NCBI RefSeq assembly: GCF_017348835.2
Contig: NZ_CP071375.1
Source: Escherichia coli
GTDB taxonomy: Bacteria > Pseudomonadota > Gammaproteobacteria > Enterobacterales > Enterobacteriaceae
Reading direction: 5' to 3' (one strand)
Length of the DNA: 64,000 nt
This document shows positions 7,539 to 48,420 of this stretch, piece after piece (the first letter of the stretch is position 1; every line of letters starts with the position of its first letter). Both the position numbers and the translations under genes were made by a program. The notes under the pieces were generated by a model. The model was given only the letters and a program-made list of their open reading frames with translations. It was not told the DNA's origin and searched no databases.

Positions 7539-7559
7539 TATATATGTATCACGCGGTGC

Positions 7560-10221: not shown

Positions 10222-10234
10222 TTTATTTAAATAA

Positions 10235-10272
10235 AAAGCCGGAAAAGAAATTAAACTTTCCCGGCTTTTTTA
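10235..10272. terminator. Hairpin plus T-tract, likely bidirectional intrinsic terminator
   Basis: aaagccgg ... ccggcttttttatt between the immunity-3 stop and the convergent SymE-like gene. Confidence 0.5.
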
Positions 10273-10276
10273 TTAT

Positions 10277-10457
10277 TTAACTCTCGTTCAGCACACTAAA
10301 CATCCCGTCCCGCATCCCCTTAACTGCCTGTTTAACCTGATAAAGCTCCCTGCGCAGTTCCTGTACTTCGTTGTTATCCGCAAGCAGGATCAGACATCCC
10401 TCCGAGATCTTCACGGTAACGCCCGTGCCGATCTCAAATCCCGCTTCTCTCAGCCAT
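10277..10457 (-). pseudogene. SymE-like toxin gene, 5'-truncated by the adjacent rhs fragment boundary
   Basis: C-terminal 60 aa (AKWLREAGFEIGTGVTVKISEGCLILLADNNEVQELRRELYQVKQAVKGMRDGMFSVLNES) resemble SymE ([28 protein letters not shown]). Similarity ends where rhs core sequence starts at ~10458. Confidence 0.55.
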
Positions 10458-26400: not shown

Positions 26401-26828
26401 CAAGACGTCGCGGTAACAGTGCTGGAAACAGAAACAGGTCGTTACTCTGACACCCTGCGTTCAGCGCTGGTTTCTCTGAATGGCGACAACGCATGGGCAT
26501 TAAGCGAAAGCTGGTATGGCACTATTCAGTGGATTTGTCGGAGTCCGTATCGCCCACATCATGGGCGTAAAAACTGGTTTCTGGGCATTGGGCGTTTTAC
26601 TGCTGATGAGCAGGAACAATCCGACGCGGTCCGTTATGAGACGCTGCGTTCGTCGGGGCCGGGCGGTCAACATGTCAATAAAACCGATTCGGCGGTGCGC
26701 GCCACGCATCTGGCTACCTGGATTAGCGTGAAGGTTCAGTCAGAGCGCAGCCAGCATGCCAACAAGCGGCTGGCACGATTGCTGATTGAACCGCCCCGGG
26801 TTTCCTGGAGAGTGTTTTATCTGTGAAC

Positions 26829-27716
26829 TCAGGCTGCCAGATCATTATTTCCGATGGAAGCATAATAAGCTTTTTCTGCTTCTGCCGGAGGAATATGGCC
26901 CAGCCTTTCCAGCAATCGTCGATTGTTATACCAGTCCACCCACGTTAGTGTGGCCAGTTCCACTTCTGTCCGGTTTTTCCAGCTCTTACGGTGTATTACC
27001 TCCGCTTTGTAAAGACCATTGATGCTCTCCGCCATCGCGTTGTCATACGAGTCGCCAGTACTCCCTGTTGATGCCAGTAATCCGGCTTCCTTAAGCCGCT
27101 GCGTGTAGGCCAGCGATACATACTGAGAACCTTTATCACTGTGATGGATTGTGCCGGACGGCCGACGGGCCCACAACGCCTGCTCCAGTGCATCCAGCAC
27201 GAATGTTGTTTCCATGGATGATGAGACCTGCCATCCCACGATGTATCCGGCGAACACATCAATGATGAACGCCACATAAACGAAGCCCTGCCATGTGCTT
27301 ACCCAGGTAAAATCAGCCACCCACAACTGGTCTGGACGTTCTGCCACGAACTGACGGTTTACGCGGTCGCATGCGGCAACGGCTTTCCGGCTGACGGTAG
27401 TGCGGACCTTTTTACCCCGGAGAACACCGGCAAGTCCCATAACTGCCATGAGACGTGCCACAGTGCATCTGGCCACTCTGATACCTTCCCGTAACAACTG
27501 ACGCCAGACTTTACGCACACCGTATACCTGGTGATTTTCATCGTATACGCGCTGTATCTCTTTCTTCAGCCAGTCATCGTGCTGCGCACGGGCACTGCGT
27601 TTATCCGGATGATGTCGCTGTTGCTGACAATGGTAATACGTTGACGGGGCAATATGCAGTTCGCTGCATACCGGTCCGACCCCGTACTGCTCACGCAGCT
27701 TATCCAGCAGTGGCAT
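26829..27716 (-). CDS. IS629-like transposase OrfB (DDE catalytic domain)
   Basis: 295 aa; start overlaps the orfA stop, consistent with IS3-type frameshifting. Confidence 0.85.
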   Translation of the reverse strand: MPLLDKLREQYGVGPVCSELHIAPSTYYHCQQQRHHPDKRSARAQHDDWLKKEIQRVYDENHQVYGVRKVWRQLLREGIRVARCTVARLMAVMGLAGVLRGKKVRTTVSRKAVAACDRVNRQFVAERPDQLWVADFTWVSTWQGFVYVAFIIDVFAGYIVGWQVSSSMETTFVLDALEQALWARRPSGTIHHSDKGSQYVSLAYTQRLKEAGLLASTGSTGDSYDNAMAESINGLYKAEVIHRKSWKNRTEVELATLTWVDWYNNRRLLERLGHIPPAEAEKAYYASIGNNDLAA

Positions 27717-28042
27717 TATTTTTTCCAGAGGCGGTCGAACTCCGCCTTCGCAAAATAAGCGGAAGCCTGGCGAAGGATATCGTTACTGCGGCGCAGTTCA
27801 CGATTTTCACGTTCCAGCTCTTTCAGACGCTGACGTTCAGCGGTGGTGAGTCCACCATCACCACTCCCGGTATCCCGCTCATGCTGGCGAACCCAGACAC
27901 GCAGAGTCTCCGGCGTACAGCCAATCTTTGGGGCAATGGAACAAATTGCCGCCCACTGTGAGTCATATTCATCCTGACTTTCCAGAACCATACGAATCGC
28001 CCGCTGACGGACTTCGGGGGAAAAACGAGTATTTTTAGTCAT
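27716..28042 (-). CDS. IS629-like transposase OrfA
   Basis: 108 aa, [26 protein letters not shown]..., helix-turn-helix. Confidence 0.85.
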
Positions 28043-28288
28043 CCTGTTTACCTCTTTCTCAGGGAGTTTAGTCTCCAGGATTTCCGGGGCGGTTCAGATT
28101 GCCTGGAAGCTGGAGCAACAGCAACAGGAAAATAGCGCAGTGCTGAAATCGCAGCGGCGAATGTTCCATCACCAGATTGAACGTGGCAACCCGCGACGAA
28201 CGTTTACAGGGATGGCTTTTATCGAAGGATAATGAAGGATGAAACTGCCGGAAGGCGATTAAACGCCATCCGGCAGCAAATCAAATAA

Positions 28289-32298: not shown

Positions 32299-33354
32299 TT
32301 AAAACTGATAGGTCATGCCAACCGCGACAATATCATCATTATTAATATTCAATTTGTTATCGCTATCCAGTTGGTTGATTTTATAATCAACAAACGCTGA
32401 CATATTTTTGTTGAAATAATATGTAGCCCCGACATCGATATAATTGACCAGATCTTCATCACCGATACCTTCAATATCTTTCCCTTTCGATAAGACATAA
32501 CCCAGCGATGGACGCAGACCAAAGTCAAACTGGTATTGAGCGACCGCTTCAAAGTTCTGTGTCTTATTGGCAAAGCCGCCAGTTATTGGCGTCATTTTGC
32601 GTGTTTCAGAATAAAAAGTTGCCAGATAAATATTATTGGCATCGTATTTCAGACCTGTTGCCCATGCTTCTGCACGCTTGCCTGTGCCACGGCTTTGCAG
32701 GTTCTGCTCGTTGGTGCGATCTGAGTTGGTATAGGCCCCACTAATGGCGAAATCGCTGCCGCCAAAGTCATATGTCAATGACGTGCCGAAGCCATCGCCG
32801 TTTTGCTTTTTAACATCGCGGTTTTCGTTTTTCCCTTGATATTGCAGGGTTAAGTTCAGGCCATCGATAACACCGAAGAAGTCGGTGTTCCGATACGTCG
32901 CCAGACCGCTGGCGCGTTTGGTCATAAAGTTGTCGGTCTGCGCCGAGGAGTCGCCACCAAATTCCGGGAACATATCGGTCCAGGCTTCCACGTCATACAA
33001 CGCGCCCAGGTTACGACCATAATCGAAAGAACCCAAATCTTTATATTTCAACCCGGCAAAAGCGAGACGCGTTTTTTGCTGTGCAGTATCACTCTCTGCT
33101 TTATTACCGGCAAACTCTGCTTCCCAACGACCATAACCAGTCAGTTGATCGTTAATTTGTGTTTCGCCTTTAAAACCAAAACGGATATAACTCTGGTCGC
33201 CATCTTTACTGTCGTTATCACTCATATAATGCATGGCTTTAACTTTGCCATAGACATCCAGTTTATTACCGTCTTTGTTATATATTTCTGCGGCCTGTAC
33301 GGATGCAGATGCCACAATGCCCATCACCACTAATGCCCGAGTACTCTTTTTCAT
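32299..33354 (-). CDS. phoE: Outer membrane phosphoporin PhoE
   Basis: Porin sequence ending ...VAVGMTYQF; start placed at [21 protein letters not shown]. Confidence 0.95.
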
Positions 33355-33389
33355 TTTCATTCCTGATTTTAATTAACGCGCGAATATTC

Positions 33390-33455
33390 AGCGGGAGAGT
33401 CCCGTTGAAAACAGGAAAGTTTTTAACCTGAGATTGTTAAAGATATATTACAGAT
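33390..33455 (-). promoter_or_regulatory. phoE promoter region with Pho-box-like repeats
   Basis: Reverse strand reads CTGTAATATATCTTTAACAATCTCAGG..., resembling PhoB-binding CTGTCATA-type repeats. Confidence 0.5.
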
Positions 33456-33641
33456 TAATAATATTCTTAAAATGTGGTAATTTATTAAATCTGTAATGAA
33501 AGCGTAAACAACTGCCGCTACGCTTGCTGATCCCGCGCAACAAAACGCCATGCTTTGCTCGCAGATGGTTGGCAACCGACGACAGTCCTGCTAAAACGTT
33601 CGTTTGATATCATTTTTCCTAAAATTGAATGGCAGAGAATC

Positions 33642-34745
33642 ATGAGTGACAGCCAGACGCTGGTGATAAAACTCGGCACCAGTGTGCTAACAGGCGGATC
33701 GCGCCGCCTGAACCGTGCCCATATCGTTGAACTTGTTCGCCAGTGCGCGCAGTTACATGCCGCCGGGCATCGGATTGTTATTGTGACGTCGGGCGCGATC
33801 GCCGCCGGACGTGAGCACCTGGGTTACCCGGAACTGCCAGCGACTATTGCCTCGAAACAACTGCTGGCGGCGGTAGGGCAGAGTCGACTGATTCAACTGT
33901 GGGAACAGCTGTTTTCGATTTATGGCATTCACGTCGGGCAGATGCTGCTGACTCGTGCTGATATGGAAGACCGTGAACGCTTCCTGAACGCCCGCGACAC
34001 CCTGCGAGCGTTGCTCGATAACAATATCGTTCCGGTAATCAATGAGAACGATGCTGTCGCTACGGCAGAGATTAAAGTCGGCGATAACGATAACCTTTCT
34101 GCACTGGCGGCGATTCTGGCGGGTGCCGATAAACTGTTGTTACTGACCGATCAAAAAGGTTTGTATACCGCTGACCCGCGCAGTAATCCGCAGGCAGAAT
34201 TGATAAAAGATGTTTACGGTATTGATGACGCACTGCGCGCGATTGCCGGTGACAGCGTTTCAGGCCTCGGAACTGGCGGCATGAGTACCAAATTGCAGGC
34301 CGCGGACGTGGCTTGCCGTGCGGGTATCGACACCATTATTGCCGCGGGCAGCAAGCCGGGCGTCATTGGTGATGTGATGGAAGGCATTTCCGTCGGTACG
34401 CTGTTCCATGCCCAGGCGACTCCGCTTGAAAACCGTAAACGCTGGATTTTCGGTGCGCCGCCTGCGGGTGAAATCACGGTAGATGAAGGGGCAACCGCCG
34501 CCATTCTTGAACGCGGCAGCTCCCTGTTGCCGAAAGGCATTAAAAGCGTGACTGGCAATTTCTCGCGTGGTGAAGTCATCCGCATTTGCAACCTCGAAGG
34601 CCGCGATATCGCCCACGGTGTCAGTCGTTATAACAGCGATGCATTACGCCGTATTGCCGGACACCACTCGCAAGAAATTGATGCAATACTGGGATATGAA
34701 TACGGCCCGGTTGCCGTTCACCGTGATGACATGATTACCCGTTAA
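33642..34745 (+). CDS. proB: Glutamate 5-kinase
   Basis: Start placed at [19 protein letters not shown] (track ORF starts earlier at 33555). Confidence 0.95.
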
Positions 34746-34756
34746 GGAGCAGGCTG

Positions 34757-36010
34757 ATGCTGGAACAAATGGGCATTGCCGCGAAGCAAGCCTCGTATAA
34801 ATTAGCGCAACTCTCCAGCCGCGAAAAAAATCGCGTGCTGGAAAAAATCGCCGATGAACTGGAAGCACAAAGCGAAATCATCCTCAACGCTAACGCCCAG
34901 GATGTTGCTGACGCGCGAGCCAATGGCCTTAGCGAAGCGATGCTTGACCGTCTGGCACTGACGCCCGCACGGCTGAAAGGCATTGCCGACGATGTACGTC
35001 AGGTGTGCAACCTCGCCGATCCGGTGGGGCAGGTAATCGATGGCGGCATACTGGACAGCGGCCTGCGTCTTGAGCGTCGTCGCGTACCGCTGGGGGTTAT
35101 TGGCGTGATTTATGAAGCGCGCCCGAACGTGACGGTTGATGTCGCTTCGCTGTGCCTGAAAACCGGTAACGCGGTGATCCTGCGCGGCGGCAAAGAAACC
35201 TGTCGCACTAACGCGGCAACGGTGGCGGTGATTCAGGACGCCCTGAAATCCTGTGGCTTACCGGCGGGTGCCGTGCAGGCAATTGATAATCCTGACCGTG
35301 CGCTGGTCAGTGAAATGCTGCGTATGGATAAATACATCGACATGCTGATCCCGCGCGGCGGGGCTGGTTTGCATAAACTGTGCCGCGAACAGTCGACGAT
35401 CCCGGTGATCACAGGTGGTATAGGCGTATGCCATATTTACGTTGATGAAAGTGCAGAGATCGCTGAAGCATTAAAAGTGATCGTCAACGCGAAAACTCAG
35501 CGTCCGAGCACATGTAATACGGTAGAAACGTTGCTGGTGAATAAAAACATCGCCGATAGCTTCCTGCCCGCATTAAGCAAACAAATGGCGGAAAGCGGCG
35601 TGACATTACACGCAGATGCAGCTGCGCTGACACAGTTGCAGGCAGGCCCCGCGAAGGTGGTGGCTGTTAAAGCGGAAGAGTATGACGATGAGTTTCTGTC
35701 ATTAGATTTGAACGTCAAAATCGTCAGCGATCTTGACGATGCCATCGCCCATATTCGTGAACACGGCACACAACACTCCGATGCGATCCTGACCCGCGAT
35801 ATGCGCAACGCCCAGCGTTTTGTTAACGAAGTGGATTCGTCCGCTGTTTACGTTAACGCCTCTACGCGTTTTACCGACGGCGGCCAGTTTGGACTGGGTG
35901 CGGAAGTGGCGGTAAGCACACAAAAACTCCACGCGCGTGGCCCAATGGGGCTGGAAGCACTGACCACTTACAAGTGGATCGGCATTGGTGATTACACCAT
36001 TCGTGCGTAA
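34757..36010 (+). CDS. proA: Gamma-glutamyl phosphate reductase
   Basis: 417-aa product. Confidence 0.95.
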
Positions 36011-36124
36011 ATAAAACCGGGTGATGCAAAAGTAGCCATTTGATTCACAAGGCCATTGACGCATCGCCCGGTTAGTTTTAACCTTGTCCACCGTGATTCA
36101 CGTTCGTGAACATGTCCTTTCAGG

Positions 36125-36200
36125 GCCGATATAGCTCAGTTGGTAGAGCAGCGCATTCGTAATGCGAAGGTCGTAGGTTCGACTCCTATTATCGGCACCA
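36125..36200 (+). tRNA. thrW: tRNA-Thr (CGU)
   Basis: GCCGATATAGCTCAGTTGGTAGAGCAGCGCATTCGTAATGCGAAGGTCGTAGGTTCGACTCCTATTATCGGCACCA; cloverleaf with CGT anticodon and encoded CCA. Confidence 0.95.
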
Positions 36201-36214
36201 TTAAAATCAATAAG

Positions 36215-37378
36215 TTACACATCATTAGTACCTTCCTTATTTTTTGACTGGGACAAATTTGGGACCGATGGGTTCAGGATCGAGTCTATTTGCCGTGCGT
36301 GTTCGGTAAGGTGATTAGGTGCAAGGTGAGCATATCGACGAACCATTTCGATAGACTCCCAGCCTCCCATTTCCTGTAAAACTGACAACGGGACTCCGGC
36401 TTGAACCAGCCAACTTGCCCAGGTGTGTCTCAAGTCGTGAAATCTGAAATCATCAATACCAGCCCGTCTCAGCGCCGCTTTCCAGGCTGTGTTTGCGTCA
36501 TACCGCATCTTCCTTACTGTTGGCGCTTTCGTTCCGTCTGGTTTGGTACAGCTTTCCTTGTACACAAATACCCAACGGTGATGATTCCCGATTTGTTTTT
36601 TCAAAACGCGACATGCAGTATCATTCAGCGCAACGCCAATTGCGCGGTTTGATTTACTCTCTTCCGGGTTTATCCATGCCACCCGGCGCTGCATGTCTAT
36701 TTGTTGCCATTCAAGGTTGATGATGTTCGAGCGTCTTAAGCCTGTTGCCAGTGCAAATTCAACAACAGACTTTAATGGCTCCGGACATTCATCAATCAGC
36801 CTTTGTGCTTCATGGGGCTCCAGCCAGCGGATCCGTTTATTCTTTGGTTGAGGCACTTTAATAATTGGTGCCTTATCCAGCATTTTCCATTCACGCTCTG
36901 CGGCTCTTAGTAGGGCCTTTATAAATGAAAGATGCGTAGCCTTCGTTGCAACGGACGCTGGTTTTGGCGTGTATTCTGGAACAGGTTTCCCTTTTTTTCT
37001 GCATGCTTCTGCCCTGAGTCTCCAGTTTTCCTCATGACGCCGGTTCGTCATTTTCTGCATTGCTGAATAAATTTTTGATTCAGTAATGTCTCTTAGTTGC
37101 ATTCCTGCGAAATGTTGAAGCCAGAATCCGATCCGGCTTTTGTCATCGTCCAGTGATTTTTTATGTGCTTTCTCTTCAAGCCACCTGACACACGCTTCCT
37201 CGAACGTTATATCAGGTATTTCACCAAGTTTGCTGACCCGCCATGCTTCAGCCTTTAGCTTGTCATGGAGTTCTGTCGCCTGCCTTTTGTCCTTTGTTCC
37301 AAGAGACTGTTTAAATCTTTTACCGTTCGGCAATGTGAAACTGGCGTACCATATTTCACCTCTGCGGAAGAGTGACAT
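36215..37378 (-). CDS. int: Phage integrase (tyrosine recombinase, P22 Int-like)
   Basis: 387 aa, [46 protein letters not shown]...; C-terminal HDLRHT...Y catalytic region. Confidence 0.9.
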
Positions 37379-37605
37379 TTTCTTTCCTCTGTTATGCCAT
37401 CACCCGCGCTCACCTGGACAGTATGCAGCGGAGACTGAAGAGCCGCAATGCAGGCTTGTCGTGTTGTGAGGTAAGGAGATTTATTCTTAGTGGGATCTTT
37501 GCGTGTTGCCTGAAGACGCCCTGTGCGTATCCAGTTAATGGCAGTCGGTCTGGATATCTTGAGAAAATGACAGGCCTCATCGAGTGTGAGGCTGTATGGC
37601 TCCAT
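37255..37605 (-). CDS. xis: Excisionase (Xis)
   Basis: 116 aa from the internal [37 protein letters not shown]...; 3' end overlaps the int start. Confidence 0.6.
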
Positions 37606-37910
37606 TATTTCACCTCTTGCTGTGACATTGTTGAAAAATGGATACCAGCTCGTTGCTGCCAGACGATCCAACCGAGAGTCATATCCCATGCCATGTATTC
37701 GTTATCGCCGTTTTTTGCTCTCCGACGATCTACTAAGTCACCGAAACGCTTTTCCATGAATAATTCATAAGCTTCGCGTTCATCTGGCTCTACTTCCAGA
37801 GATAGGAGTGCGATTTCATAAGCACGGCGCTCAATATCGTCTCGCACGTCAAGGCTGCTGATACGCTCTTTAATTTCTTTAATCAGTTCTTTGTCGGTAA
37901 AAGTGGTCAT
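37605..37910 (-). CDS. Phage early-region hypothetical protein (YfdT-like position)
   Basis: 101-aa ORF in operon-like overlap with neighbours. Confidence 0.4.
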   Translation of the reverse strand: MTTFTDKELIKEIKERISSLDVRDDIERRAYEIALLSLEVEPDEREAYELFMEKRFGDLVDRRRAKNGDNEYMAWDMTLGWIVWQQRAGIHFSTMSQQEVK

Positions 37911-38272
37911 TATGCTCCAGCCTCCGGTGCTTTTGGCATTACTGCCCAGTGAGTGATATTGACGTTTTCAAGGTCCCCAACCTGAAATGTCCACTGCCAT
38001 TCTCCGGTTTCTTTTTGTCCCCAGGTGTACCAGAGAGAACGCCAACCAATTAGCCAGCCTTCTCCGTTAGCATCGAATAACAAAACACTTTCATTTGCTG
38101 GTGGCAGTTCAGTTGACACTGGTATTACTTTGTTTTCCTGTGCTGCACATTTAGCTTCAAGCGCATCGAATTTACGCACCAGGTATTCAGCATCTGTTTC
38201 ATTTACTTTCAGATCTCGCGGTACACATCTCCCACGAAGAAACCCTTCCATTTCGAAAACATTCATGCGCAT
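37910..38272 (-). CDS. Phage early-region hypothetical protein (YfdS-like position)
   Basis: 120-aa ORF in operon-like overlap with neighbours; no family recognised. Confidence 0.4.
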   Translation of the reverse strand: MRMNVFEMEGFLRGRCVPRDLKVNETDAEYLVRKFDALEAKCAAQENKVIPVSTELPPANESVLLFDANGEGWLIGWRSLWYTWGQKETGEWQWTFQVGDLENVNITHWAVMPKAPEAGA

Positions 38273-38799
38273 TTGCGTAACTCCGATAACTCGTTAAAGC
38301 GTTCCATAAACATCCCGTAGGCATGGCCCGGTGCCAGTGGAATCACGTTGAACATCTCTGTTGCCGGGATACCTTCCAGTACAGGCCAGAAAGAGCCATC
38401 ATCAAGCCCGAGATCGCGGCGTTCGGTTGCCAGCATGATGAGATCGGCATATTTCACGGGCGTACTCATAACTGGGGGTAACCCGTATTTCTCACGGATT
38501 ACGGCGTCTATTTTTTCTTCCATTTGTTTATAGTCAGGAAGAAGGCGTTTCAGTGGTGCGGGAATGTCCTGGCAATTCGCTTCTGTTGCATCATGCATTA
38601 ACGCTTCAAAAGCAAATTCCTGCGGCACCAACTGGCTGCAAAGAACCGCATGTTGGGCGACGCTGTAGAAGTGCGAAAGATGACCGGCAAAGCGACAGAT
38701 ATTTGAAAGGGAAACCGCGATATCGTTAATATCGATGTCGTCTTTATTTATCCTGTCATAATAAAAATGCTTCCCGGAAAAAGTTTTAATAAATGACAT
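38263..38799 (-). CDS. HD-domain phosphohydrolase, YfdR-like
   Basis: MSFIKTFSGKHFYYDRINKDD...; H...HD motifs (FAGHLSHFYSVAQHAVL...MHDATEA). Confidence 0.65.
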   Translation of the reverse strand: MSFIKTFSGKHFYYDRINKDDIDINDIAVSLSNICRFAGHLSHFYSVAQHAVLCSQLVPQEFAFEALMHDATEANCQDIPAPLKRLLPDYKQMEEKIDAVIREKYGLPPVMSTPVKYADLIMLATERRDLGLDDGSFWPVLEGIPATEMFNVIPLAPGHAYGMFMERFNELSELRKCA

Positions 38800-38926
38800 T
38801 TTGTTCTCCACGTATATGCGCTGCACCGCGCTGAATTTTGGTTAAAGAAAACCCTCGCCATCAGGCGATTATTGAGTTAATTACGTTTCTATAAATGCCC
38901 CCGCAGGGGCATTTGCAGTAATGAAA

Positions 38927-39751
38927 TCAGGCGGTGAAAGTACCAATAAAGGTTTCTACTTTGCTGTCTTTGAATTTTTCAACAAGCAGATTACGAAATT
39001 CGTTAGCCATTTCTTCCTGTACTGCTTCCAGCTGAATAATGCGCAGAACCAGTACAGGGCGATCACCAGTGATAATGCTGAGGCGTAATTTAAACGGACG
39101 TTCTTTCAGGCCTTCAAACGGAACGCATTTAAACTCAAATGCTACTGGCATAATGTCTTTAGTTTTCGCTTCGACAGACTCCATCAGAGAGCGTTTGCCG
39201 CTGAAGTCATTGTCTTCAAAATCAGCGGTCTGGTTTGCTTCAATCGTGATTTTACGGACCGCCGCAGCCGCTTTTGTTGCCTGAATGGCGTCACCATTAG
39301 CATCAAAGCCCACAAGGTAGTCGGCCCAGTCTTCAATCCATTCTGCCAGTGACTTCTGGGAGTTACGCTCGCCGTTAACAGACAACAGGGCAGAGAACGG
39401 TGCTGTCTTTTTCAGTTTGAGAGTGGCGGTGTTATCTGCGTGACCTGGTTCATCAATAGTACCCAGGTTAAGCACACTGACGGCTCGCATATTATCAGCA
39501 TCGATAAAGCAGCGGGTGCCTTCATCTGCAAGATCTTTAGAATAACGGATAAAGTCATCGATGCTGGCAGTGGAAAGCGCACCACGGAAACGGAAGCGAT
39601 TTAAATTAAATTTTTCCAGATCATGAATGCGGAAATTCTCAGGCAATGCCACAGCATCGGCACCAATCTTACTGATAATTTCATTAACACTCTGAGCAGA
39701 AATAAGGGCATGGATTTGATTAATTTCGGTTGCGTCTAAGTTCTGAGACAT
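38927..39751 (-). CDS. YfdQ-like phage protein (DUF2303-type)
   Basis: 274-aa ORF adjacent to the HD-domain gene, as in P22-like early-left regions. Confidence 0.5.
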
Positions 39752-39816
39752 AATAAGTCCTCACTATATAAAGATATTCAGTGATGAGATAAATAATCAG
39801 TTAATTAAGAACGATA

Positions 39817-40197
39817 TTAATGACCTGCTGCGCGGAGTTTTCCGTCAGGTTCACCGGCAAGAGTCAGTAATTGTCCCTGGTCTTCCTGCAGAATAGTCAG
39901 GCGACCACCGCGATTGACATACATCGGTGTTTCGGTGGTGTCTTCTTCGGAAATTTTCCCGCGGTTAGTCGGGCGAACATATGAGAGTTTGTGTTTGATT
40001 TTCACACGGTTCTCATCAAATGGTTCGATTTCCAGGTTGAGCGAGACCTTACCTTTGGTTTTCGTGTTCATCACACCGGAAGCGACTTCACTGAGAACTG
40101 CGCCGATTTTGGTTTCAAATACGCCGCCGTCCAGCTCCCCGATAAATGCCTGCACATCAGTACTGCGTTCGCTAGCCATTTTGCTGCTCCTCATCAT
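39817..40197 (-). CDS. Phage hypothetical protein (YfdP-like position); start sits at the deletion junction
   Basis: 126-aa ORF whose 5' end coincides with the point where J-homologous sequence begins. Confidence 0.35.
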
Positions 40198-40199
40198 AT

Positions 40200-41874
40200 C
40201 GACCCTGCAAGGTCGGTTATCGCACGGCTGGAAGCAGAAGGCTGGTTAACGCGTAAGGCGCGTCGCCAGGGTAACGGCTGGGAGACGGCGACAGAGCTTG
40301 TTGAAGATACGCAGGCCATTCTCCGTTACGGTCGTAACGTCACGAAGATGGATGCCTTTGGCTGTACCAGCCGGGGGCAGGCGCACCGCGCCGGGCTGTG
40401 GCTGATTAAAACGGAACTACTGGAAACGCAGACCGTGGACTTCAGCGTGGGTGCGGAAGGGCTTCGCCATGTGCCGGGCGATGTCATTGAAATCTGCGAT
40501 GATGACTATGCGGGGATCAGCACCGGCGGGCGCGTGCTGGCGGTGAACAGCCAGACCCGGACGCTGACGCTCGACCGTGAAATCACGCTGCCATCCTCCG
40601 GTACCACGCTGATAAGCCTGGTTGACGGAAGTGGCAATCCGGTCAGCGTGGAGGTCCAGTCCGTCACCGACGGCGTGAAGGTAAAAGTGAGCCGTGTTCC
40701 TGACGGCGTTGCCGGATACAGCGTATGGGGGCTGAAGCTGCCGACGCTGCGCCAGCGCCTGTTCCGCTGCGTGAGTATCCGTGAGAACGACGACGGCACG
40801 TATGCCATCACCGCCGTGCAGCATGTACCGGAAAAAGAAGCCATCGTGGATAACGGGGCGCACTTTGACGGCGACCAGAGCGGCACGGTGAATGGTGTCA
40901 CGCCGCCAGCGGTGCAGCACCTGACCGCAGAAGTCACCGCAGACAGTGGGGAATACCAGGTGCTGGCGCGATGGGACACACCGAAGGTGGTGAAGGGCGT
41001 GAGCTTCCTGCTCCGTCTGACCGTAACAGCGGACGACGGCAGTGAGCGGCTGGTCAGCACGGCCCGGACGACGGAAACCACATACCGCTTCACGCAACTG
41101 GCGCTGGGGAACTACAGGCTGACAGTCCGGGCGGTAAATGCCCGGGGGCAGCAGGGTGATCCGGCGTCGGTATCGTTCCGGATTGCGATGATTAATCCTG
41201 CGAATGGCAACACAAAGCCGATGTTTGTTGGTCAGGGCGATCAGATATTCATGAACGACGTGTTCCTGAAACGCCTGACGGCTCCGACCATTACCAGTGG
41301 CGGTAATCCTCCGGCATTTTCCCTGACACCGGACGGGCGGCTGACGGCGAAAAATGCCGATATCAGCGGTAACGTGAATGCGAACTCCGGGGCGCTCAAC
41401 AACGTCACGATTAACGAGAACTGTCGGGTTCTGGGAAAATTGTCCGCCAACCAGATTGAAGGCGATCTCGTTAAAACAGTGGGCAAAGCTTTCCCCCGGG
41501 ACTCCCGTGCACCGGAACGGTGGCCATCAGGGACCATCACCGTCAGGGTTTATGACGATCAGCCGTTTGACCGGCAGATTGTTATTCCGGCGGTGGCATT
41601 CAGCGGCGCTAAACATGAGCGGGAGAATAACGATATTTATTCGTCATGCCGCCTGATAGTACGGAAAAACGGTGCTGAAATTTATAACCGTACCGCGCTG
41701 GATAATACGCTGATTTACAGTGGTGTTATTGATATGCCAGCTGGTCGCGGCCACATGACGCTGGAGTTTTCGGTGTCATCATGGCTGGTAAATGACTGGT
41801 ATCCCACAGCAAGTATCAGCGATTTGCTGGTTGTGGTGATGAAGAAAGCCACCGCAGGCATCAGTATCAGCTGA
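40200..41874 (+). pseudogene. J: Lambda J-like tail tip/host-specificity gene, 5'-truncated and with an internal deletion
   Basis: ...[94 protein letters not shown]... to the J C-terminus; only the C-terminal part present. Confidence 0.8.
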
Positions 41875-41941
41875 ATTTTATAACCCATATACGGGCGCCA
41901 GAAATGGCGCCTTTTTTATTGCAGAAAAGCGAGAGGTAATT

Positions 41942-42541
41942 ATGCGTAAAGTTTGTGCAGCCATTTTGTCCGCAGCCATCTGTCTGGCCGTATCCGGTGC
42001 GCCTGCATGGGCATCTGAGCAGCAGGCCACGCTGAGCGCAGGGTATCTTCATGCCCGTACGAACGCTTCCGGCAGCGATAATCTGAACGGGATTAACGTG
42101 AAATACCGTTATGAGTTTACGGACACGCTGGGGCTGATTACGTCATTCAGTTATGCCAACGCTGAAGATGAGCAAAAAACGCATTACAGCGATACCCGCT
42201 GGCATGAGGATTCCGTGCGTAATCGCTGGTTCAGCGTGATGGCGGGGCCGTCTGTGCGCGTGAATGAATGGTTCAGCGCGTATGCGATGGCGGGTATGGC
42301 TTACAGCCGTGTGTCGACTTTCTCCGGGGATTATCTCCGCGTAACTGACAACAAGGGGAAAAAGCACGATGTGCTGACCGGAAGTGATGACGGTCGCCAC
42401 AGCAACACGTCTCTGGCGTGGGGAGCTGGCGTGCAGTTTAACCCGACCGAATCCGTGGCCATTGATGTCGCTTATGAAGGCTCCGGCAGTGGTGACTGGC
42501 GCACTGACGGGTTCATCGTGGGTGTTGGTTATAAATTCTGA
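41942..42541 (+). CDS. lom: Lom-family outer membrane protein (Ail/Lom)
   Basis: 199 aa with signal peptide and C-terminal ...GFIVGVGYKF. Confidence 0.9.
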   Translation: MRKVCAAILSAAICLAVSGAPAWASEQQATLSAGYLHARTNASGSDNLNGINVKYRYEFTDTLGLITSFSYANAEDEQKTHYSDTRWHEDSVRNRWFSVMAGPSVRVNEWFSAYAMAGMAYSRVSTFSGDYLRVTDNKGKKHDVLTGSDDGRHSNTSLAWGAGVQFNPTESVAIDVAYEGSGSGDWRTDGFIVGVGYKF

Positions 42542-42599
42542 TTAGCCAGGTAACACAGTGTTATGACAGCCCGCCGGTTCAGGCGGGCTTTTTTGTGGG

Positions 42600-44417
42600 G
42601 TGAATATGGCAGTAAAAATTTCAGGTGTACTGAAAGACGGCACAGGAAAACCGGTACAGAACTGCACAATCCAGCTGAAAGCAAAACGTAACAGTACCAC
42701 GGTGGTGGTGAACACGCTGGCATCTGAAAATCCGGATGAAAAGGGGATAGTACAGCTCAGCAGTGCGACCAACAGCACTTCCGAGTCACTGGCGGCAACG
42801 CCAAAAGCCGTTAAGGCCGCGTATGACCTGGCTAACGGGAAATACACCGCACAGGATGCAACGACAGCACAGAAAGGGATAATCCAGCTAAGCAGCGCGA
42901 CCAACAGCACGTCTGAAACGCTGGCGGCAACGCCAAAGGCAGTAAAAGCAGCCAATGACAATGCTGAGAAACGTCTGCAGAAAGATCAGAACGGTGCGGA
43001 TATCCCTGGCAAAGACACCTTTACGAAAAATATTGGTGCCTGCCGTGCCTTCGGTGGGTCAGTAAGCACAACAACAGGAAACTGGACGACTGCACAGTTT
43101 ATCGAGTGGCTGGATTCTCAGGGAGCATTTAACCATCCATACTGGATGTGCAAGGGTTCCTGGTCTTATGGCAATAATAAAATCATTACTGATACTGGCT
43201 GCGGTAATATTCATCTCGCCGGAGCTGTCATTGAAGTAATGGGGATAAAGTCAGCGATGACGATCCGCATTACCACTCCGACCACATCCAGCGGTGGCGG
43301 AACAACCAACGCCCAGTTTACCTATATTAATCACGGAACAGATTATTCACCTGGCTGGCGAAGGGACTATAACTCCAGAAATAAGCCAACGGCATCAGAG
43401 ATCGGGGCGCTACCGTCAGGTGGAACAGCAGTATCATCAGTTAATCTGGCTTCAAAAGGTCGGGTAGCCGCGCTGACAGACAATACGCAGGGGGCAGCAG
43501 GTCTTGAGTTATACGAGGTGTATAACAACGGATATCCAACAGCGTATGGAAATATCATTCACCTGAAAGGGATGACAGCCGTTGGCGAAGGTGAGTTACT
43601 CATCGGCTGGAGTGGTACAAGTGGTGCTCATGCTCCGGCATTTATTCGTTCACGACGGGATACGACCGACGCAAACTGGTCGCCGTGGGCGCAGCTTTAC
43701 ACCTCGGCTCATCCTCCTGCAGAGTTTTATCCAGTCGGTGCACCAATCCCGTGGCCATCAGATACCGTTCCGTCTGGTTATGCCCTGATGCAGGGGCAGA
43801 CTTTTGACAAATCTGCTTACCCGAAACTTGCAGCCGCTTATCCGTCAGGCGTGATCCCTGATATGCGTGGCTGGACGATTAAGGGCAAGCCCGCCAGTGG
43901 TCGTGCCGTATTGTCTCAGGAACAGGATGGCATTAAATCGCATACCCACAGCGCCAGCGCATCCAGTACGGATTTGGGGACGAAAACCACATCGTCGTTT
44001 GATTACAGCACTAAATCCACGAATAACACTGGTGCGCATACCCATAGTTTAAGTGGCAGCACGAATGCAGCTGGTAATCACAGCCATAGAGATGGCCGTC
44101 GATTTAACCCCAGTGTTTTTAAAGATACTTATCAATATGGTTATACAAGCTCAGGTCAAAATACTTGGGGTGTACAAGGCTCAGTAGGTATGTCTACGGG
44201 GTGGTTAGCTAATACCAGTACAGATGGTAATCATAGCCACTCACTGTCCGGCACAGCAGCATCTGCAGGTGCACACGCGCATACTGTCGGTATTGGTGCT
44301 CATACGCACTCCGTTGCGATTGGTTCACATGGACACACCATCACCGTTAACGCTGCTGGTAACGCGGAAAACACCGTCAAAAACATCGCATTTAACTATA
44401 TTGTGAGGCTTGCATAA
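42600..44417 (+). CDS. stf: Side tail fibre protein Stf (shorter than lambda Stf)
   Basis: [28 protein letters not shown]... N-terminus and the conserved C-terminal His-rich repeats ([27 protein letters not shown]...[18 protein letters not shown]). Confidence 0.85.
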
Positions 44418-45001
44418 TGGCATTCAGAATGAGTGAACAACCACGGACCATAAAAATTTATAATCTGCTGGCCGGAACTAATGAATTTATTGGTGAAGGT
44501 GACGCATATATTCCGCCTCATACAGGTCTGCCAGCAAACAGTACCGATATTGCACCGCCAGATATTCCGGCTGGCTTTGTGGCTGTTTTCAACAGTGATG
44601 AGGCATCGTGGCATCTCGTTGAAGATCATCGGGGAAAAACCGTCTATGACGTGGCTTCCGGCGACGCGTTATTTATTTCTGAACTTGGCTCGTTACCGGA
44701 AAATGTCACCTGGTTATCGCCGGAAGGGGAATATCAGAAGTGGAACGGCACAGCCTGGGTGAAGGATACGGAAGCAGAAAAACTGTTCCGGATCCGGGAG
44801 GCGGAAGAAACAAAAAACAACCTGATGCAGGTAGCCAGTGAGCATATTGCGCCACTTCAGGATGCTGCAGATCTGGAAATCGCAACGGAGGAAGAAAACT
44901 CGTTGCTGGAAGCCTGGAAAAAGTATCGGGTGTTGCTGAACCGTGTTAATACAACAACTGCACCTGATATTGAGTGGCCTACGAACCCTGTCAGGGAGTA
45001 A
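44417..45001 (+). CDS. tfa: Tail fibre assembly protein Tfa
   Basis: 194-aa product; ATG overlaps the stf stop. Confidence 0.85.
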
Positions 45002-45362
45002 TCATTGGGATTATGCCGCAGAAACGTTGTATGCAATAACGTTTTGCGGTTGGCTGGTGAACTTCCGATAGTGCGGGTGTTGAATGATTTCCAGCTGCTA
45101 CCGATTTTACATATTTTTGCCTGAGAGGATTTGAACCGCCTCCACAGACTCTACATCACAGATAACCACTGTCACGAGGACTGTTAGTGCTGTGAGTTCA
45201 ACGGGGCGATGTACGCTACCTTTAATCAAGAGGGAGAGGTACGTTGCTAAGATGAGTTTATATTCATCAACTAAGTGCAGATCAGCGAATAACTAAAACT
45301 TGGCTGTCTGAACCGCCCCGGAAATCCTGGAGACTAAACTCCCTGAGAAAGAGGTAAACAGG

Positions 45363-45689
45363 ATGACTAAAAATACTCGTTTTTCCCCCGAAGTCCGTCA
45401 GCGGGCGATTCGTATGGTTCTGGAAAGTCAGGATGAATATGACTCACAGTGGGCGGCAATTTGTTCCATTGCCCCAAAGATTGGCTGTACGCCGGAGACT
45501 CTGCGTGTCTGGGTTCGCCAGCATGAGCGGGATACCGGGAGTGGTGATGGTGGACTCACCACCGCTGAACGTCAGCGTCTGAAAGAGCTGGAACGTGAAA
45601 ATCGTGAACTGCGCCGCAGTAACGATATCCTTCGCCAGGCTTCCGCTTATTTTGCGAAGGCGGAGTTCGACCGCCTCTGGAAAAAATAA
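45363..45689 (+). CDS. IS629-like transposase OrfA
   Basis: Product identical to the copy at 27716..28042. Confidence 0.85.
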
Positions 45690-46576
45690 TGCCACTGCTG
45701 GATAAGCTGCGTGAGCAGTACGGGGTCGGACCGGTATGCAGCGAACTGCATATTGCCCCGTCAACGTATTACCATTGTCAGCAACAGCGACATCATCCGG
45801 ATAAACGCAGTGCCCGTGCGCAGCACGATGACTGGCTGAAGAAAGAGATACAGCGCGTATACGATGAAAATCACCAGGTATACGGTGTGCGTAAAGTCTG
45901 GCGTCAGTTGTTACGGGAAGGTATCAGAGTGGCCAGATGCACTGTGGCACGTCTCATGGCAGTTATGGGACTTGCCGGTGTTCTCCGGGGTAAAAAGGTC
46001 CGCACTACCGTCAGCCGGAAAGCCGTTGCCGCATGCGACCGCGTAAACCGTCAGTTCGTGGCAGAACGTCCAGACCAGTTGTGGGTGGCTGATTTTACCT
46101 GGGTAAGCACATGGCAGGGCTTCGTTTATGTGGCGTTCATCATTGATGTGTTCGCCGGATACATCGTGGGATGGCAGGTCTCATCATCCATGGAAACAAC
46201 ATTCGTGCTGGATGCACTGGAGCAGGCGTTGTGGGCCCGTCGGCCGTCCGGCACAATCCATCACAGTGATAAAGGTTCTCAGTATGTATCGCTGGCCTAC
46301 ACGCAGCGGCTTAAGGAAGCCGGATTACTGGCATCAACAGGGAGTACTGGCGACTCGTATGACAACGCGATGGCGGAGAGCATCAATGGTCTTTACAAAG
46401 CGGAGGTAATACACCGTAAGAGCTGGAAAAACCGGACAGAAGTGGAACTGGCCACACTAACGTGGGTGGACTGGTATAACAATCGACGATTGCTGGAAAG
46501 GCTGGGCCATATTCCTCCGGCAGAAGCAGAAAAAGCTTATTATGCTTCCATCGGAAATAATGATCTGGCAGCCTGA
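45689..46576 (+). CDS. IS629-like transposase OrfB
   Basis: Product identical to the copy at 26829..27716. Confidence 0.85.
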   Translation: MPLLDKLREQYGVGPVCSELHIAPSTYYHCQQQRHHPDKRSARAQHDDWLKKEIQRVYDENHQVYGVRKVWRQLLREGIRVARCTVARLMAVMGLAGVLRGKKVRTTVSRKAVAACDRVNRQFVAERPDQLWVADFTWVSTWQGFVYVAFIIDVFAGYIVGWQVSSSMETTFVLDALEQALWARRPSGTIHHSDKGSQYVSLAYTQRLKEAGLLASTGSTGDSYDNAMAESINGLYKAEVIHRKSWKNRTEVELATLTWVDWYNNRRLLERLGHIPPAEAEKAYYASIGNNDLAA

Positions 46577-46618
46577 GTTCACAGATAAAACACTCTCCAG
46601 GAAACCCGGGGCGGTTCA

Positions 46619-48420
46619 TCTCCCGTCGCGCTATGCACGCCGACCTCCACAAAATGCCCGGCAAAGGTCGACTGCTGGTACTCCTTGCTCAGTGTTCCGA
46701 ATTCAATGCTCTCTTCCGCTGTCAGTCTGCCGCCTGCGGTGGCCTCATGTAGCGTGGCGCTTCGGGTACCGTTGGTAATCTTGCCGTCGGCAAACTGCGA
46801 CTGCTCAGGATCAAACCCGACTGCCGAGGCAATCATTTCGCGAAGCTTCACACAGGCGGCGTAAACGCCGGAGGTGGAGGTATTCGCGCCCCATTGTCCA
46901 CCAGAACCCGCAGAAACCGGGAAACTGGAATCGCCGAGGTGAACCGCAACCTGCTCCAGCGGTACGCCAAGCATTTCCGCTGCCGTCTGGGCCAGAATGG
47001 TGTAGCTGCCGGTGCCAATGTCGGTCATGTCCGTTTCCACGGTAACGGTGCCGTTTGGTTCGAGGTGAACCCGAGCCCCCGATTTTTCCAGCAGATTATT
47101 GCGAAAGCCCGCCGCGACGCCGTGGCCGACTAGCCACTCTCCGTCGCGTACCTGTCCAGGTGTGGCGTTGCGCTGCTTCCAGCCAAATTTATCCGCTCCG
47201 GCGCGCAAGCACTCGATAAGCTGACGGCGAGAGAAGCGGCGCGTCGGGTCGGCGGGGTCAACCTGAGTGTCATTCAGGATGCGAAACTCGACGGGATCGA
47301 TGCCCGCTTTTTCCGCCAGTTCGTCGATCGCGATTTCGAGCGCCATCAGACCGGGGGCTTCGCCGGGCGCACGCATGGCGTTCCCTTCCGGCAAATCAAG
47401 CGTGGCGAGCCGCAGGCCGGTATGACGGTTTGCCCCGGCGTAGAGTAATTCGCTTTGCTGTACCGCCGTTTCCGGCGTGCCGCCGGGCAGGTTTCCGGAC
47501 CAGCTTTCATGTGAGATAGCGGTGATTTTCCCGCTCTGGTCGGCACCGATACGCAAGTGCTGAAGGGTGGCGGGGCGGTGCGTGGTGTTATTGGGAATAG
47601 AGGGGCGGGGGAGCATCACTTTAACCGGACGTTTCACCGCTCGGGCGGCGAGGGCTGCCAGCAGCGCATCGCTTCTCAGGAAGAGCTTGCCGCCAAACCC
47701 TCCGCCGATATACGGGGAGATAATACGCACATTCTCCACGGGCACTTTCAGCGTTTTTGCCAGATCGGTGCGGCACCAGTCAATCATCTGATTTGAGGTC
47801 CAGAGAGTAAGCTTATTTCCATCCCAGACGGCCATCGAGGCATGCGGCTCCATCGCCATATGGCTCTGGTCCGGGGTCGTGTAGGTAGCATCAATCTTCA
47901 CCGCAGCGGAGGAGAAAGCCCCGTCAAAGTCACCGACGTTTTTGTCGGGCGTGCCTTCCGGCGGCTGATTGACGGCCTGTTTTTCGTCCGCCAGGGAGTA
48001 AGCTCCTTTATTACGGCGATAGTGCGCCTGCACCAGCGAGGCCGCCGCTCGCGCCTGTTCGAAGGTCTCGGCCACTACCAGCGCAATGGCCTGATGATAG
48101 TGCTCAATAGTGGGGCCGCCTAACAGCCTGGCGGTGTTTTTGTCGCCTTTGCCGAGTGCCCCGGCGTTACTGGCGGTAATGACAGCCAGTACGCCCGGCG
48201 CTTTTTGCGCGGCGTCCGTATCAAGGGCGGTGAGGCGTCCTTTGGCAATGGCGGAACCGACGATATAGCCATAGGCGGCGTTGGGGGATTCTTCATGCCA
48301 TTCGTAGGCGTAGCGTGCCGTGCCGGTAGTTTTCAGCGGTCCGTCGATGCGGTCATAGGGACGACCGACAACCTTCAGCTGATCGATCGGGTTTTCCCCT
48401 GCGGGTTTATCAAATTTCAT
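46619..48420 (-). pseudogene. paoC: Aldehyde oxidoreductase molybdopterin-binding subunit PaoC (YagR), 3'-truncated by the IS
   Basis: Track ORF 46579..48420 reads into the IS terminal repeat (C-terminus ...[11 protein letters not shown] is IS-encoded); native protein is ~730 aa, ~600 aa remain. Confidence 0.8.

What the first reader, a model, noticed from the sequence alone, without database searches (positions are those of the whole stretch)
40200..44417. J and stf are shortened variants
The J fragment is missing its N-terminal part and goes from ...PASVSFRIA directly to [30 protein letters not shown], skipping a central stretch I remember from lambda J. Stf is 605 aa with lambda-like ends but a shorter, different middle. 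Tail-fibre receptor-binding regions are typical recombination hotspots; here they are cargo of a dead prophage but could still donate host-range modules.
Basis: partly seen in the sequence, partly recalled or inferred. Interest (0 to 1): 0.35.

Follow-up and report, generated by a model that had tools for sequence, protein, structure and literature searches.

The report
Deleted tail genes in dead prophage
The short J and Stf tail-fibre genes are real, but they are ordinary deletion scars in a decayed 9-kb E. coli prophage remnant, which keeps the receptor-binding ends and has lost the parts needed to build a phage tail.

Summary
The window carries a roughly 9-kb prophage remnant at tRNA-Thr (thrW) in E. 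coli.

I compared it with the closest full-length prophage, strain 200164, which is 98.8-99.8% identical in DNA. J has lost its first ~405 codons. It has also lost 657 nt (219 codons; lambda residues 713-903) in frame, between two copies of a 9-bp direct repeat, CCGGATTGC. Stf has lost 1260 nt (420 codons, residues 46-465) in frame, at a junction with 2 nt of microhomology. That takes it from 1023 to 603 aa.

Among 5,426 complete E. coli genomes, each junction is contiguous only in strain PE164, while thousands carry the undeleted flanks. An independent draft assembly has all the junctions, so misassembly is very unlikely.

The deletions remove structural parts:
- J loses hub domains, FNIII-2, the helical shaft and the top of the fibre.
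- Stf loses half of the collar domain and the proximal coiled coil.

The receptor-binding ends of both, lom and tfa are intact. Stf's "different middle" compared with lambda is a Mu S-like module, and full-length relatives have it too. No repressor, replication, lysis, head or late-promoter genes remain.

This is ordinary prophage decay. Donating host-range modules by recombination is plausible in principle but was not tested.

The parts
36125..36200 (+). tRNA-Thr (CGT), thrW. This is the integration site and left boundary of the prophage remnant.
   Evidence: ARAGORN, Rfam tRNA, and the PGAP annotation of the identical PE164 locus.
36215..37378 (-). Tyrosine integrase of the remnant. The ORF is intact.
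   Evidence: ORF list. PGAP names it 'tyrosine-type recombinase/integrase'. Pfam Phage_integrase is recorded for the identical contig.
37255..40197 (-). Leftward early genes of a CPS-53-like lambdoid prophage: an HTH/xis-like gene, yfdT, a phage protein, yfdR, yfdQ and yfdP.
   Evidence: PGAP annotation of the 100% identical PE164 locus and the ORF list.
40218..40275 (+). A 58-nt internal fragment of a 942-nt helix-turn-helix gene. In intact relatives this gene lies downstream of ymfL and a DUF4222 gene. The fragment is stranded between two deletions. It joins yfdP-upstream DNA at a TA microhomology and joins J' in frame at TAAC (40272-40275).
   Evidence: (98.3% match to L006 4001-4059) and the junction alignment.
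40272..41186 (+). J' segment A, equal to lambda J residues 408-712. It holds the C-terminal half of the Phage-tail_3 hub domain and the first Ig/FNIII domain. There is no start codon and no promoter.
   Evidence: 96% nt identity to lambda and 99.8% to strain 200164. 98% aa identity to lambda J 408-712. Pfam. PGAP marks it a pseudogene 'missing N-terminus'.
41178..41186 (+). Junction of the internal J deletion. One copy of the 9-bp direct repeat CCGGATTGC remains; the parent has two copies 657 nt apart.
   Evidence: Junction alignment. Contiguous only in PE164 among 5,426 genomes.
41187..41874 (+). J' segment B, equal to lambda J residues 904-1132. It holds the lower central fibre and the C-terminal receptor-binding domain. 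The domain is of a non-lambda type, 59% aa identical to lambda.
   Evidence: Pfam Phage_Tail_Tip positions 58-138 and a complete Ig_GpJ_C. PDB sequence matches 9wca and 8xcj.
41893..41912 (+). Terminator-like hairpin with a T-run, after J'.
41942..42541 (+). lom, an intact gene for an Ail/Lom outer-membrane beta-barrel protein of 199 aa. It is 44% identical to lambda Lom.
   Evidence: Pfam Ail_Lom, E=8e-125, full length. BLASTP.
42568..42589 (+). Terminator-like hairpin with a T-run, after lom.
42606..42740 (+). stf' N-terminal 45 codons. This is the first third of the Stf collar domain (phage_tail_N positions 1-51 of 134).
   Evidence: PDB 9e7m lambda Stf N-domain matches residues 1-50.
42739..42740 (+). 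Junction of the 1260-nt in-frame stf deletion, with AA microhomology. Parent codon 45 is joined to codon 466.
   Evidence: Junction alignment. Contiguous only in PE164 among 5,426 genomes.
42741..44417 (+). stf' distal part, parent residues 466-1023. It holds two Phage_fiber_2 repeats (42741-42827 and 42873-42959), a Mu S-like module, the collar domain and a T4 gp37-like, His-rich receptor-binding tip.
   Evidence: 98.8% nt identity to strain 200164 and 98.2% to phage PhiR68_2. Pfam. PDB 8ju3, E=1.7e-86, and 2xgf, E=8.6e-84. Repeats.
44417..45001 (+). tfa, an intact tail-fibre assembly chaperone of 194 aa. It is 94% identical to lambda Tfa.
   Evidence: Pfam Caudo_TAP, E=8.8e-43.
45309..46618 (+). 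IS3-family insertion sequence. It cuts off the right end of the prophage and the 3' end of paoC. No target duplication and no attR were found.
   Evidence: Rfam ALIL frameshift pseudoknot at 45644-45760.

Best explanation
The region is the tail-tip end of a defective lambdoid prophage integrated at thrW. It has been whittled down by at least four illegitimate (microhomology-mediated) deletions and cut off on the right by an IS3-family element.

Two deletions removed everything between the early-left operon (yfdP) and J codon ~405. They left a 58-nt scrap of a replication-region HTH gene fused in frame to J'. A third deletion removed 657 nt inside J, between two copies of a 9-bp direct repeat. 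This is the pattern expected of slipped-strand or RecA-independent deletion. A fourth removed 1260 nt inside stf at a 2-nt microhomology.

The products cannot build a tail. J' lacks its hub domains, FNIII-2, the alpha-helical shaft and the top of the central fibre. Stf' lacks two thirds of the collar domain that clamps it to the tail tube, and the whole proximal coiled coil.

The late promoter and Q antiterminator are gone, and terminators precede lom and stf'. J', stf' and tfa are therefore most likely silent pseudogene-like remnants. lom may still be expressed on its own.

Shown: the deletions, their junctions, their rarity and which domains are lost. Inferred: the deletion mechanism, the lack of expression and the loss of function.
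For: - The window is 99.8%, 99.5% and 98.8% identical, in three blocks, to one full-length J-lom-stf-tfa prophage in strain 200164. The offsets between blocks are exactly 657 and 1260 nt.
- Junction sequences show the 9-bp repeat CCGGATTGC, and the AA, TAAC and TA microhomologies.
- 120-nt probes across each junction are contiguous in 1 of 5,426 complete E. coli genomes (PE164). By contrast, 3,981 and 3,671 genomes match one or other half, and 2,957 genomes cover at least 80% of a longer probe (window 40100-42900); all 29 listed besides PE164 match it in three or four separated pieces, as the full-length genes would.
- An independent draft assembly, GCA_019365205.1, is 100% identical across window 32606-45383.
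- Pfam shows which domains are lost, comparing the remnant proteins with the full-length ones.
- Published lambda structures place Stf residues 1-91 as the collar domain and 102-393 as the proximal coiled coil (PMC12617516). In gpJ they place FNIII-1, FNIII-2, the helical shaft, the central straight fibre and the receptor-binding domain in that order (PMC11101478).
- The remnant has no repressor, replication, lysis, head or tail-tube genes and no attR.
- No + strand promoter-like site lies between 39700 and 45400, and there are terminators after J' and after lom.
- No credible in-frame start precedes J'.
- PGAP already flags J' as a pseudogene and the stf 5' piece as partial.
Against: - All three gene-internal junctions (HTH fragment to J', J internal, stf internal) preserve the reading frame. 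The chance of that is about 1/27, which could hint at selection for translatable products.
- stf' and tfa are uninterrupted ORFs, and lom is intact.
- Expression was not measured. The promoter scan is a crude consensus search.
- The order and mechanism of the deletions are inferred from junction sequences only. No intermediate with a single deletion was found.
Confidence: 0.9

Rival explanations
1. The short forms are functional, selected alleles. Examples would be a 'mini' side fibre (Stf' with Tfa) or a soluble receptor-binding J fragment. The host might use these for receptor blocking or superinfection exclusion, or passing phages might use them in trans.
For: - Both internal deletions and the HTH-J' fusion are in frame.
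- The stf' and tfa ORFs are intact, and the receptor-binding domains are complete.
Against: - J' has no start codon or promoter.
- Stf' keeps only 45 of ~91 residues of the collar domain that attaches it to the tail.
- The late promoter and antiterminator are absent, and terminators lie upstream.
- The alleles occur in a single lineage, 1 of 5,426 complete genomes.
- Three in-frame junctions by chance has p of about 0.04, which is weak evidence.
Confidence: 0.04
2. The shortening is the product of modular recombination between tail-fibre genes, the 'recombination hotspot' reading, rather than of deletion.
For: - Stf is clearly mosaic. It has a lambda-like N-terminus, Mu S-like middle modules, and a T4 gp37/lambda-like tip.
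- The right end of the stf deletion lies 4 codons into a conserved Phage_fiber_2 repeat.
- The J specificity region is known to be an independently exchanged module (PMC6646904).
Against: - DNA on both sides of each junction is 98.8-99.8% identical to one and the same full-length prophage. No foreign module was brought in.
- The junctions share only 2 and 9 nt of homology.
- The mosaic middle is already present in the full-length relatives.
Confidence: 0.04
3. The deletions are assembly artefacts, for example collapsed repeats.
For: stf contains 87-nt repeats about 80% identical, and the neighbourhood has two identical IS copies.
Against: - The junctions are not in those repeats.
- The same junctions occur in the complete PE164 genome and in an independent 17.4-kb draft contig reported for 5 samples. 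Two further similar places were not shown.
- The window differs from PE164 by an IS-mediated inversion, so it is a separate assembly.
Confidence: 0.02

Closest known systems
Lambda gpJ (tip attachment protein J; NCBIfam NF049904 lambda_TipJ; PDB 8iyk, 8xcj)
   Same: Residues 408-712 are 98% identical to lambda J. The lower central fibre and the C-terminal Ig-like receptor-binding domain (Pfam Ig_GpJ_C) are complete.
   Different: It lacks residues 1-407 and 713-903 in lambda numbering. It scores 993 bits against a family cut-off of 1950. It has no start codon. The receptor-binding region is only 59% identical to lambda's, so the receptor need not be LamB.
Ur-lambda side tail fibre Stf (774 aa) and the full-length Stf of lambdoid prophages and phages such as PhiR68_2 (1025 aa) and E. 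coli 200164 (1023 aa)
   Same: The first 45-47 residues match (91% to lambda, 98% to 200164). The distal 558 residues are ~97% aa identical to 200164 Stf and 98.2% nt identical to PhiR68_2. The C-terminal 229 residues are 71% identical to lambda Stf. An intact tfa follows.
   Different: It is missing 420 residues (46-465): most of the collar domain, the linker and the proximal coiled coil. Compared with lambda it also has a second Phage_fiber_2 repeat and a Mu S-like module (PDB 8ju3) in place of lambda's hinge and distal coiled coil.
Defective lambdoid prophages of E. coli K-12 that retain truncated tail-fibre genes (Rac stfR/tfaR, Qin stfQ/tfaQ, CPS-53 yfd genes)
   Same: It has the same kind of remnant structure: an integrase, a few early genes and a stf-tfa block, with everything else deleted and IS elements at the edge. 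The early genes yfdP, yfdQ, yfdR and yfdT match CPS-53. Lambda has been shown to recombine with the stf/tfa of such remnants (PMC3945230).
   Different: The integration site (thrW), the deletion endpoints and the Stf module set all differ. Recombination with incoming phages has not been shown for this remnant.

Membership tests
lambda TipJ family (gpJ) | Full-length match to the family model above the curated cut-off (NF049904, 1950 bits) | tested here: not met
   993 bits in two stretches, covering model positions 408-711 and the C-terminal part. It is a fragment of a family member, not a complete member.
lambda TipJ family (gpJ) | Domain set: FNIII-A, Phage-tail_3 hub, Ig_J, Ig_J_second, Phage_Tail_Tip, Ig_GpJ_C | tested here: not met
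   FNIII-A and Ig_J_second are absent. Phage-tail_3 is present only from profile position 78. Phage_Tail_Tip is present only from position 58. Ig_J and Ig_GpJ_C are complete. The full-length relative has all six.
lambda TipJ family (gpJ) | Genomic context: downstream of tail genes H, M, L, K and I, and upstream of lom | tested here: not met
   lom follows, but yfdP and a gene scrap lie upstream instead of tail genes. The full-length relative has the tape-measure gene, L, K and I upstream.
Lambdoid side tail fibre Stf | Complete N-terminal collar domain (Pfam PF08400 phage_tail_N, 134 positions; lambda StfN residues 1-91) | tested here: not met
   Only profile positions 1-51 are present. The deletion starts after residue 45. 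The domain definition comes from PMC12617516.
Lambdoid side tail fibre Stf | Distal Phage_fiber_2 repeat(s), collar domain and gp37-like receptor-binding tip, followed by a Tfa chaperone gene | tested here: met
   Pfam Phage_fiber_2 twice and Collar. PDB 2xgf T4 gp37 tip, E=8.6e-84. tfa is intact with Caudo_TAP, E=8.8e-43.
Lambdoid side tail fibre Stf | Assembly onto a phage tail and binding of a surface receptor | not testable with these tools
   This needs virion or adsorption experiments.
Defective (cryptic) prophage | Integrase next to a tRNA attachment site | tested here: met
   tRNA-Thr lies at 36125-36200 and the integrase at 36215-37378.
Defective (cryptic) prophage | Lack of genes essential for lytic growth | tested here: met
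   Between int and the IS, the only genes are early yfd genes, J', lom, stf' and tfa. Repressor, replication, lysis, head and tail-tube genes are absent. Intact relatives have them.
Defective (cryptic) prophage | Loss of one attachment site | tested here: met
   No repeat of 10 nt or more of the thrW 3' region was found in 40000-46000, or of 15 nt in the whole window. The right end is replaced by an IS with no target duplication.

The most novel reading that the evidence does not exclude
The remnant is a working reservoir. Its intact non-lambda J receptor-binding domain and its Mu S-like/gp37-like Stf tip with Tfa are flanked by 82-96% homology to lambda-type phages. Superinfecting lambdoid phages could pick them up by Red-type relaxed recombination and change host range. 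Alternatively, the three frame-preserving junctions reflect selection for an expressed Stf' or J' product with a host function.
Probability: 0.07. Interest if true: 0.3.

Novelty: already known. Interest (0 to 1): 0.08.

Why it matters
It matters little beyond annotation hygiene. The result documents, to the base pair, how a lambdoid prophage decays. There are four microhomology-mediated deletions, one of them between 9-bp direct repeats, plus truncation by an IS element.

It corrects three readings:
- The 627-aa and 605-aa mechanical ORFs are not genes as listed.
- PGAP splits one continuous stf' ORF into a pseudogene and a 435-aa 'phage tail protein'.
- The identical protein is named 'short-chain dehydrogenase' in GenBank.

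The intact receptor-binding ends are potential raw material for recombination with incoming phages. That phenomenon is already established for the Rac and Qin prophages.

Tried and rejected
- NCBIfam gave no family for Stf'.
- Searches for attR (repeats of the thrW 3' end) found nothing.
- The promoter scan found no + strand site in 39700-45400 and no excess over shuffles.
- I looked for other genomes with only one of the two internal deletions, to order the events. None was found among 5,426 complete genomes.
- The 90% protein cluster of Stf' contains 555-568-aa members that looked like further short alleles. On inspection they were not. One (L010) comes from an intact 1023-codon stf with an internal gene call. 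Another (L009) is a different 5' truncation, at parent nt 1023. They are not the same event.
- I considered and rejected assembly collapse at the 87-nt Phage_fiber_2 repeats, because the stf junction lies outside them.
- I searched for the paper I recall on lambda J recombining with a relict prophage in E. coli B. It was not found in the library, so it is not cited.
- I did not use structure prediction or the large metagenome and genome scans. Sequence comparison already settled the question.
Full report
**Where the region sits.** The window is E. coli chromosome. Downstream of proA (34757-36010) lies tRNA-Thr (36125-36200). Next come an integrase (36215-37378, minus strand) and the leftward early genes yfdT, yfdR, yfdQ and yfdP of a CPS-53-like lambdoid prophage. 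On the plus strand follow a J fragment, lom, stf and tfa, then an IS3-family element (about 45309-46618) that abuts a truncated paoC. From window 36000 to the right end of the IS, the DNA is 100% identical to E. coli PE164, a pig isolate (NZ_CP114128). In that genome PGAP already marks J as a pseudogene 'missing N-terminus' and the 5' piece of stf as partial.

**Checking the observation against lambda.** BLASTN against lambda (L002) gives two J blocks:
- Window 40273-41186 matches lambda J nt 1222-2135 at 96%.
- Window 41191-41424 matches lambda J from nt 2713 at 82%.

At protein level, J' residues 1-305 match lambda J 408-712 at 98% identity, and residues 303-532 match lambda J 901-1131 at 59%.

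For Stf, residues 1-47 match lambda Stf 1-47 at 91%. Residues 375-603 match the C-terminal ORF of lambda's split stf at 71%. The conserved [15 protein letters not shown] repeat also matches. The rest has no lambda counterpart. The homologous start is the ATG at 42606, giving 603 aa. The 605-aa figure comes from an upstream GTG.

**The nearest full-length relative defines the events.** A search of 5,426 complete E. coli genomes with window 40100-42900 found PE164 as the only single-piece match. The next best is strain 200164, which matches in three pieces at 99.6% over 4,552 nt of record, against 2,635 nt of query. Aligning the window to that prophage (L005) gives three blocks:

| Window block | L005 block | Identity |
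|---|---|---|
| 40266-41186 | 5001-5921 | 99.8% |
| 41178-42740 | 6570-8132 | 99.5% |
| 42739-44979 | 9391-11631 | 98.8% |

The offsets differ by exactly 657 nt (219 codons of a 1159-aa J) and 1260 nt (420 codons of a 1023-aa Stf; 1023 - 420 = 603).

Base-level junctions show two things:
- The J deletion lies between two copies of the 9-bp direct repeat CCGGATTGC. These encode the 'RIA' of ...SFRIA|APAAPS... and of ...[12 protein letters not shown]...
- The stf deletion joins ...ENPDE (codon 45) to KGIVQL... (codon 466) with only AA shared.

**The left end is compound.**
- Window 39950-40219 is yfdP and its normal upstream DNA.
- Window 40218-40275 is a 58-nt internal piece of a 942-nt helix-turn-helix gene. 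In intact relatives this gene follows ymfL and a DUF4222 gene.
- J homology begins at 40272.

The junctions share TA and TAAC, and the HTH fragment is fused in frame to J' (...[25 protein letters not shown]...). At least two deletions therefore removed the immunity, replication, lysis, head and tail genes. The mechanical 627-aa ORF (39991-41874) runs through antisense yfdP and this scrap. The only in-frame start codons are a GTG at 39991 and an ATG at 40348, inside J, and neither is convincing.

**Are these deletions or natural alleles or artefacts?** 120-nt probes centred on each internal junction are contiguous in only one of 5,426 genomes, PE164. Meanwhile 3,981 and 3,671 genomes match one half or the other.

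The exact 603-aa protein exists in GenBank as EFC6684800.1, misnamed 'short-chain dehydrogenase', on three contigs. One of these is a 17.4-kb draft contig of GCA_019365205.1 (L008), whose entry lists five samples. It is 100% identical to window 32606-45383, including all junctions, and ends in the IS copies on both sides. The window also differs from PE164 by an inversion between two IS copies, so at least three assemblies agree.

The junctions are not in the 87-nt Phage_fiber_2 repeats. Misassembly is therefore very unlikely. These are rare, lineage-specific deletions of a common prophage type.

**What was lost and what was kept.**

*J.* Pfam on the full-length relative finds FNIII-A_GpJ (86-207), Phage-tail_3 (330-498), Ig_J (610-714), Ig_J_second (716-818), Phage_Tail_Tip (872-1000) and Ig_GpJ_C (1029-1159). 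J' keeps only Phage-tail_3 from profile position 78, Ig_J, Phage_Tail_Tip from position 58, and a complete Ig_GpJ_C. [quoted passage not shown] The internal deletion therefore removes FNIII-2, the shaft and the top of the fibre. The 5' truncation removes most of the hub.

*Stf.* The full-length relative has phage_tail_N 1-134, whereas Stf' has profile positions 1-51 only. In Ur-lambda, Stf residues 1-91 form the collar domain that clamps onto the gpV/gpM junction, 92-101 form a linker, and 102-393 form the proximal coiled coil (PMC12617516). Stf' has lost all of this after residue 45.

Stf' retains:
- two Phage_fiber_2 repeats;
- a module matching the phage Mu S/S' fibre (PDB 8ju3, E=1.7e-86, residues 119-303);
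- the collar domain;
- a T4 gp37-like tip (PDB 2xgf, E=8.6e-84, residues 374-603).

The same modules are in the full-length relatives: PhiR68_2 Stf is 98.4% aa identical to 200164 Stf. So the 'different middle' compared with lambda is pre-existing mosaicism, not part of the shortening.

*Flanking genes.* tfa (94% to lambda Tfa) and lom (a full-length Ail_Lom match) are intact.

**Expression.** No sigma-70-like site was found on the plus strand between 39700 and 45400. Strong terminator-like hairpins follow J' (41893-41912) and lom (42568-42589). In an intact lambdoid phage these genes are read by the Q-antiterminated late transcript (established knowledge). Q and the late promoter are absent here. 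I infer that J', stf' and tfa are silent. In lambda, lom is known to be expressed from the prophage (my own knowledge, not tested here).

**Mechanism and rivals.** The best explanation is stepwise prophage decay by illegitimate deletion plus IS-associated loss of the right end (confidence about 0.9).

One loose thread remains. All three gene-internal junctions preserve the reading frame, which has a chance probability of about 1/27. I regard this as weak evidence and, given the missing start, promoter and attachment domains, most likely coincidence. It does keep a small probability for a selected product.

Module exchange as the cause of the shortening is rejected, because both sides of each junction derive from the same parent type.

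**Can the remnant donate host-range modules?** Donor capacity is plausible. Lambda recombines with the stf/tfa of Rac and Qin through 88-95% identical stretches (PMC3945230), and the J specificity region (residues 960-1132) behaves as an independently exchanged module in nature (PMC6646904).

Here, however, the best left-hand homology to lambda lies upstream of the deletions: J' 40273-41186 at 96%, and the stf N-terminus within the block 42414-42740 at 87%. A crossover there would import a crippled gene. Clean transfer would need crossovers in the shorter, 82-86% identical stretches (41191-41424; 42740-42816) and in tfa (93.5%). This was not tested.

**Verdict.** This is an ordinary, already annotated kind of feature. 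Interest is low.

Noticed in passing
window 26787-28098 (-) and 45307-46618 (+): Two 100% identical, inverted copies of a ~1310-bp IS3-family element bracket a 17.2-kb segment (phoE-proBA-thrW-prophage remnant). The termini read TGAACCGCCCCGG..., which from memory looks IS629-like. In strain PE164 this segment is inverted relative to the window. The window keeps the K-12-like gene order. The left copy has matching 3-bp flanks (ATC); the right copy has none.
   Followed up: partly
window 46619-48420 (-): paoC (yagR) is truncated at its 3' end by the IS. The mechanical 613-aa ORF runs into the IS, and paoD is absent. The IS therefore removed the prophage right end, attR and part of the pao operon.
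   Followed up: partly
window 44760-44958 (+): A full-length, high-scoring Rfam hit to IS009 (RF02111, 226 bits against a cut-off of 117). IS009 is a candidate small RNA. Here it lies entirely inside the tfa coding sequence, so the family may simply be tracking conserved tfa DNA.
   Followed up: no
window 42606-44417, and PE164 locus L001 9607-11418: Annotation oddities for one continuous 603-codon ORF. PGAP splits it into a 'tail fiber protein' pseudogene (missing C-terminus) and a separate 435-aa 'phage tail protein' (WP_410054728.1). GenBank EFC6684800.1, the identical 603-aa protein, is named 'short-chain dehydrogenase'. A 39-aa ORF at window 45005-45124 is named 'capsid protein'.
   Followed up: partly
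window 40218-40275, 41178-41186 and 42739-42740: All three gene-internal deletion junctions (HTH fragment to J', J internal, stf internal) preserve the reading frame. The chance of that is about 1 in 27. No start codon or promoter was found that would make this meaningful.
   Followed up: partly
window 41187-41874: The J receptor-binding region is of a non-lambda type. It is 59% identical to lambda J 901-1131 and closer to 'A8 gpJ 713' (PDB 9wca). Its receptor is unknown. The same type is common in E. coli prophages, for example strain 200164.
   Followed up: partly
L009 5658-7707 (GCA_910664855.1) and related loci: Another E. coli genome carries a different 5'-truncated copy of the same stf type, starting at parent nt 1023, with tfa, next to an invasin-like gene. 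Independent stf-tfa remnants of this fibre type therefore recur.
   Followed up: partly
other E. coli genomes: H27, H29, H36 and H45: In several other strains, the annotated features under the match to this window region include an Avs2 (AVAST type 2) anti-phage gene. No such gene is present in the window's remnant.
   Followed up: no
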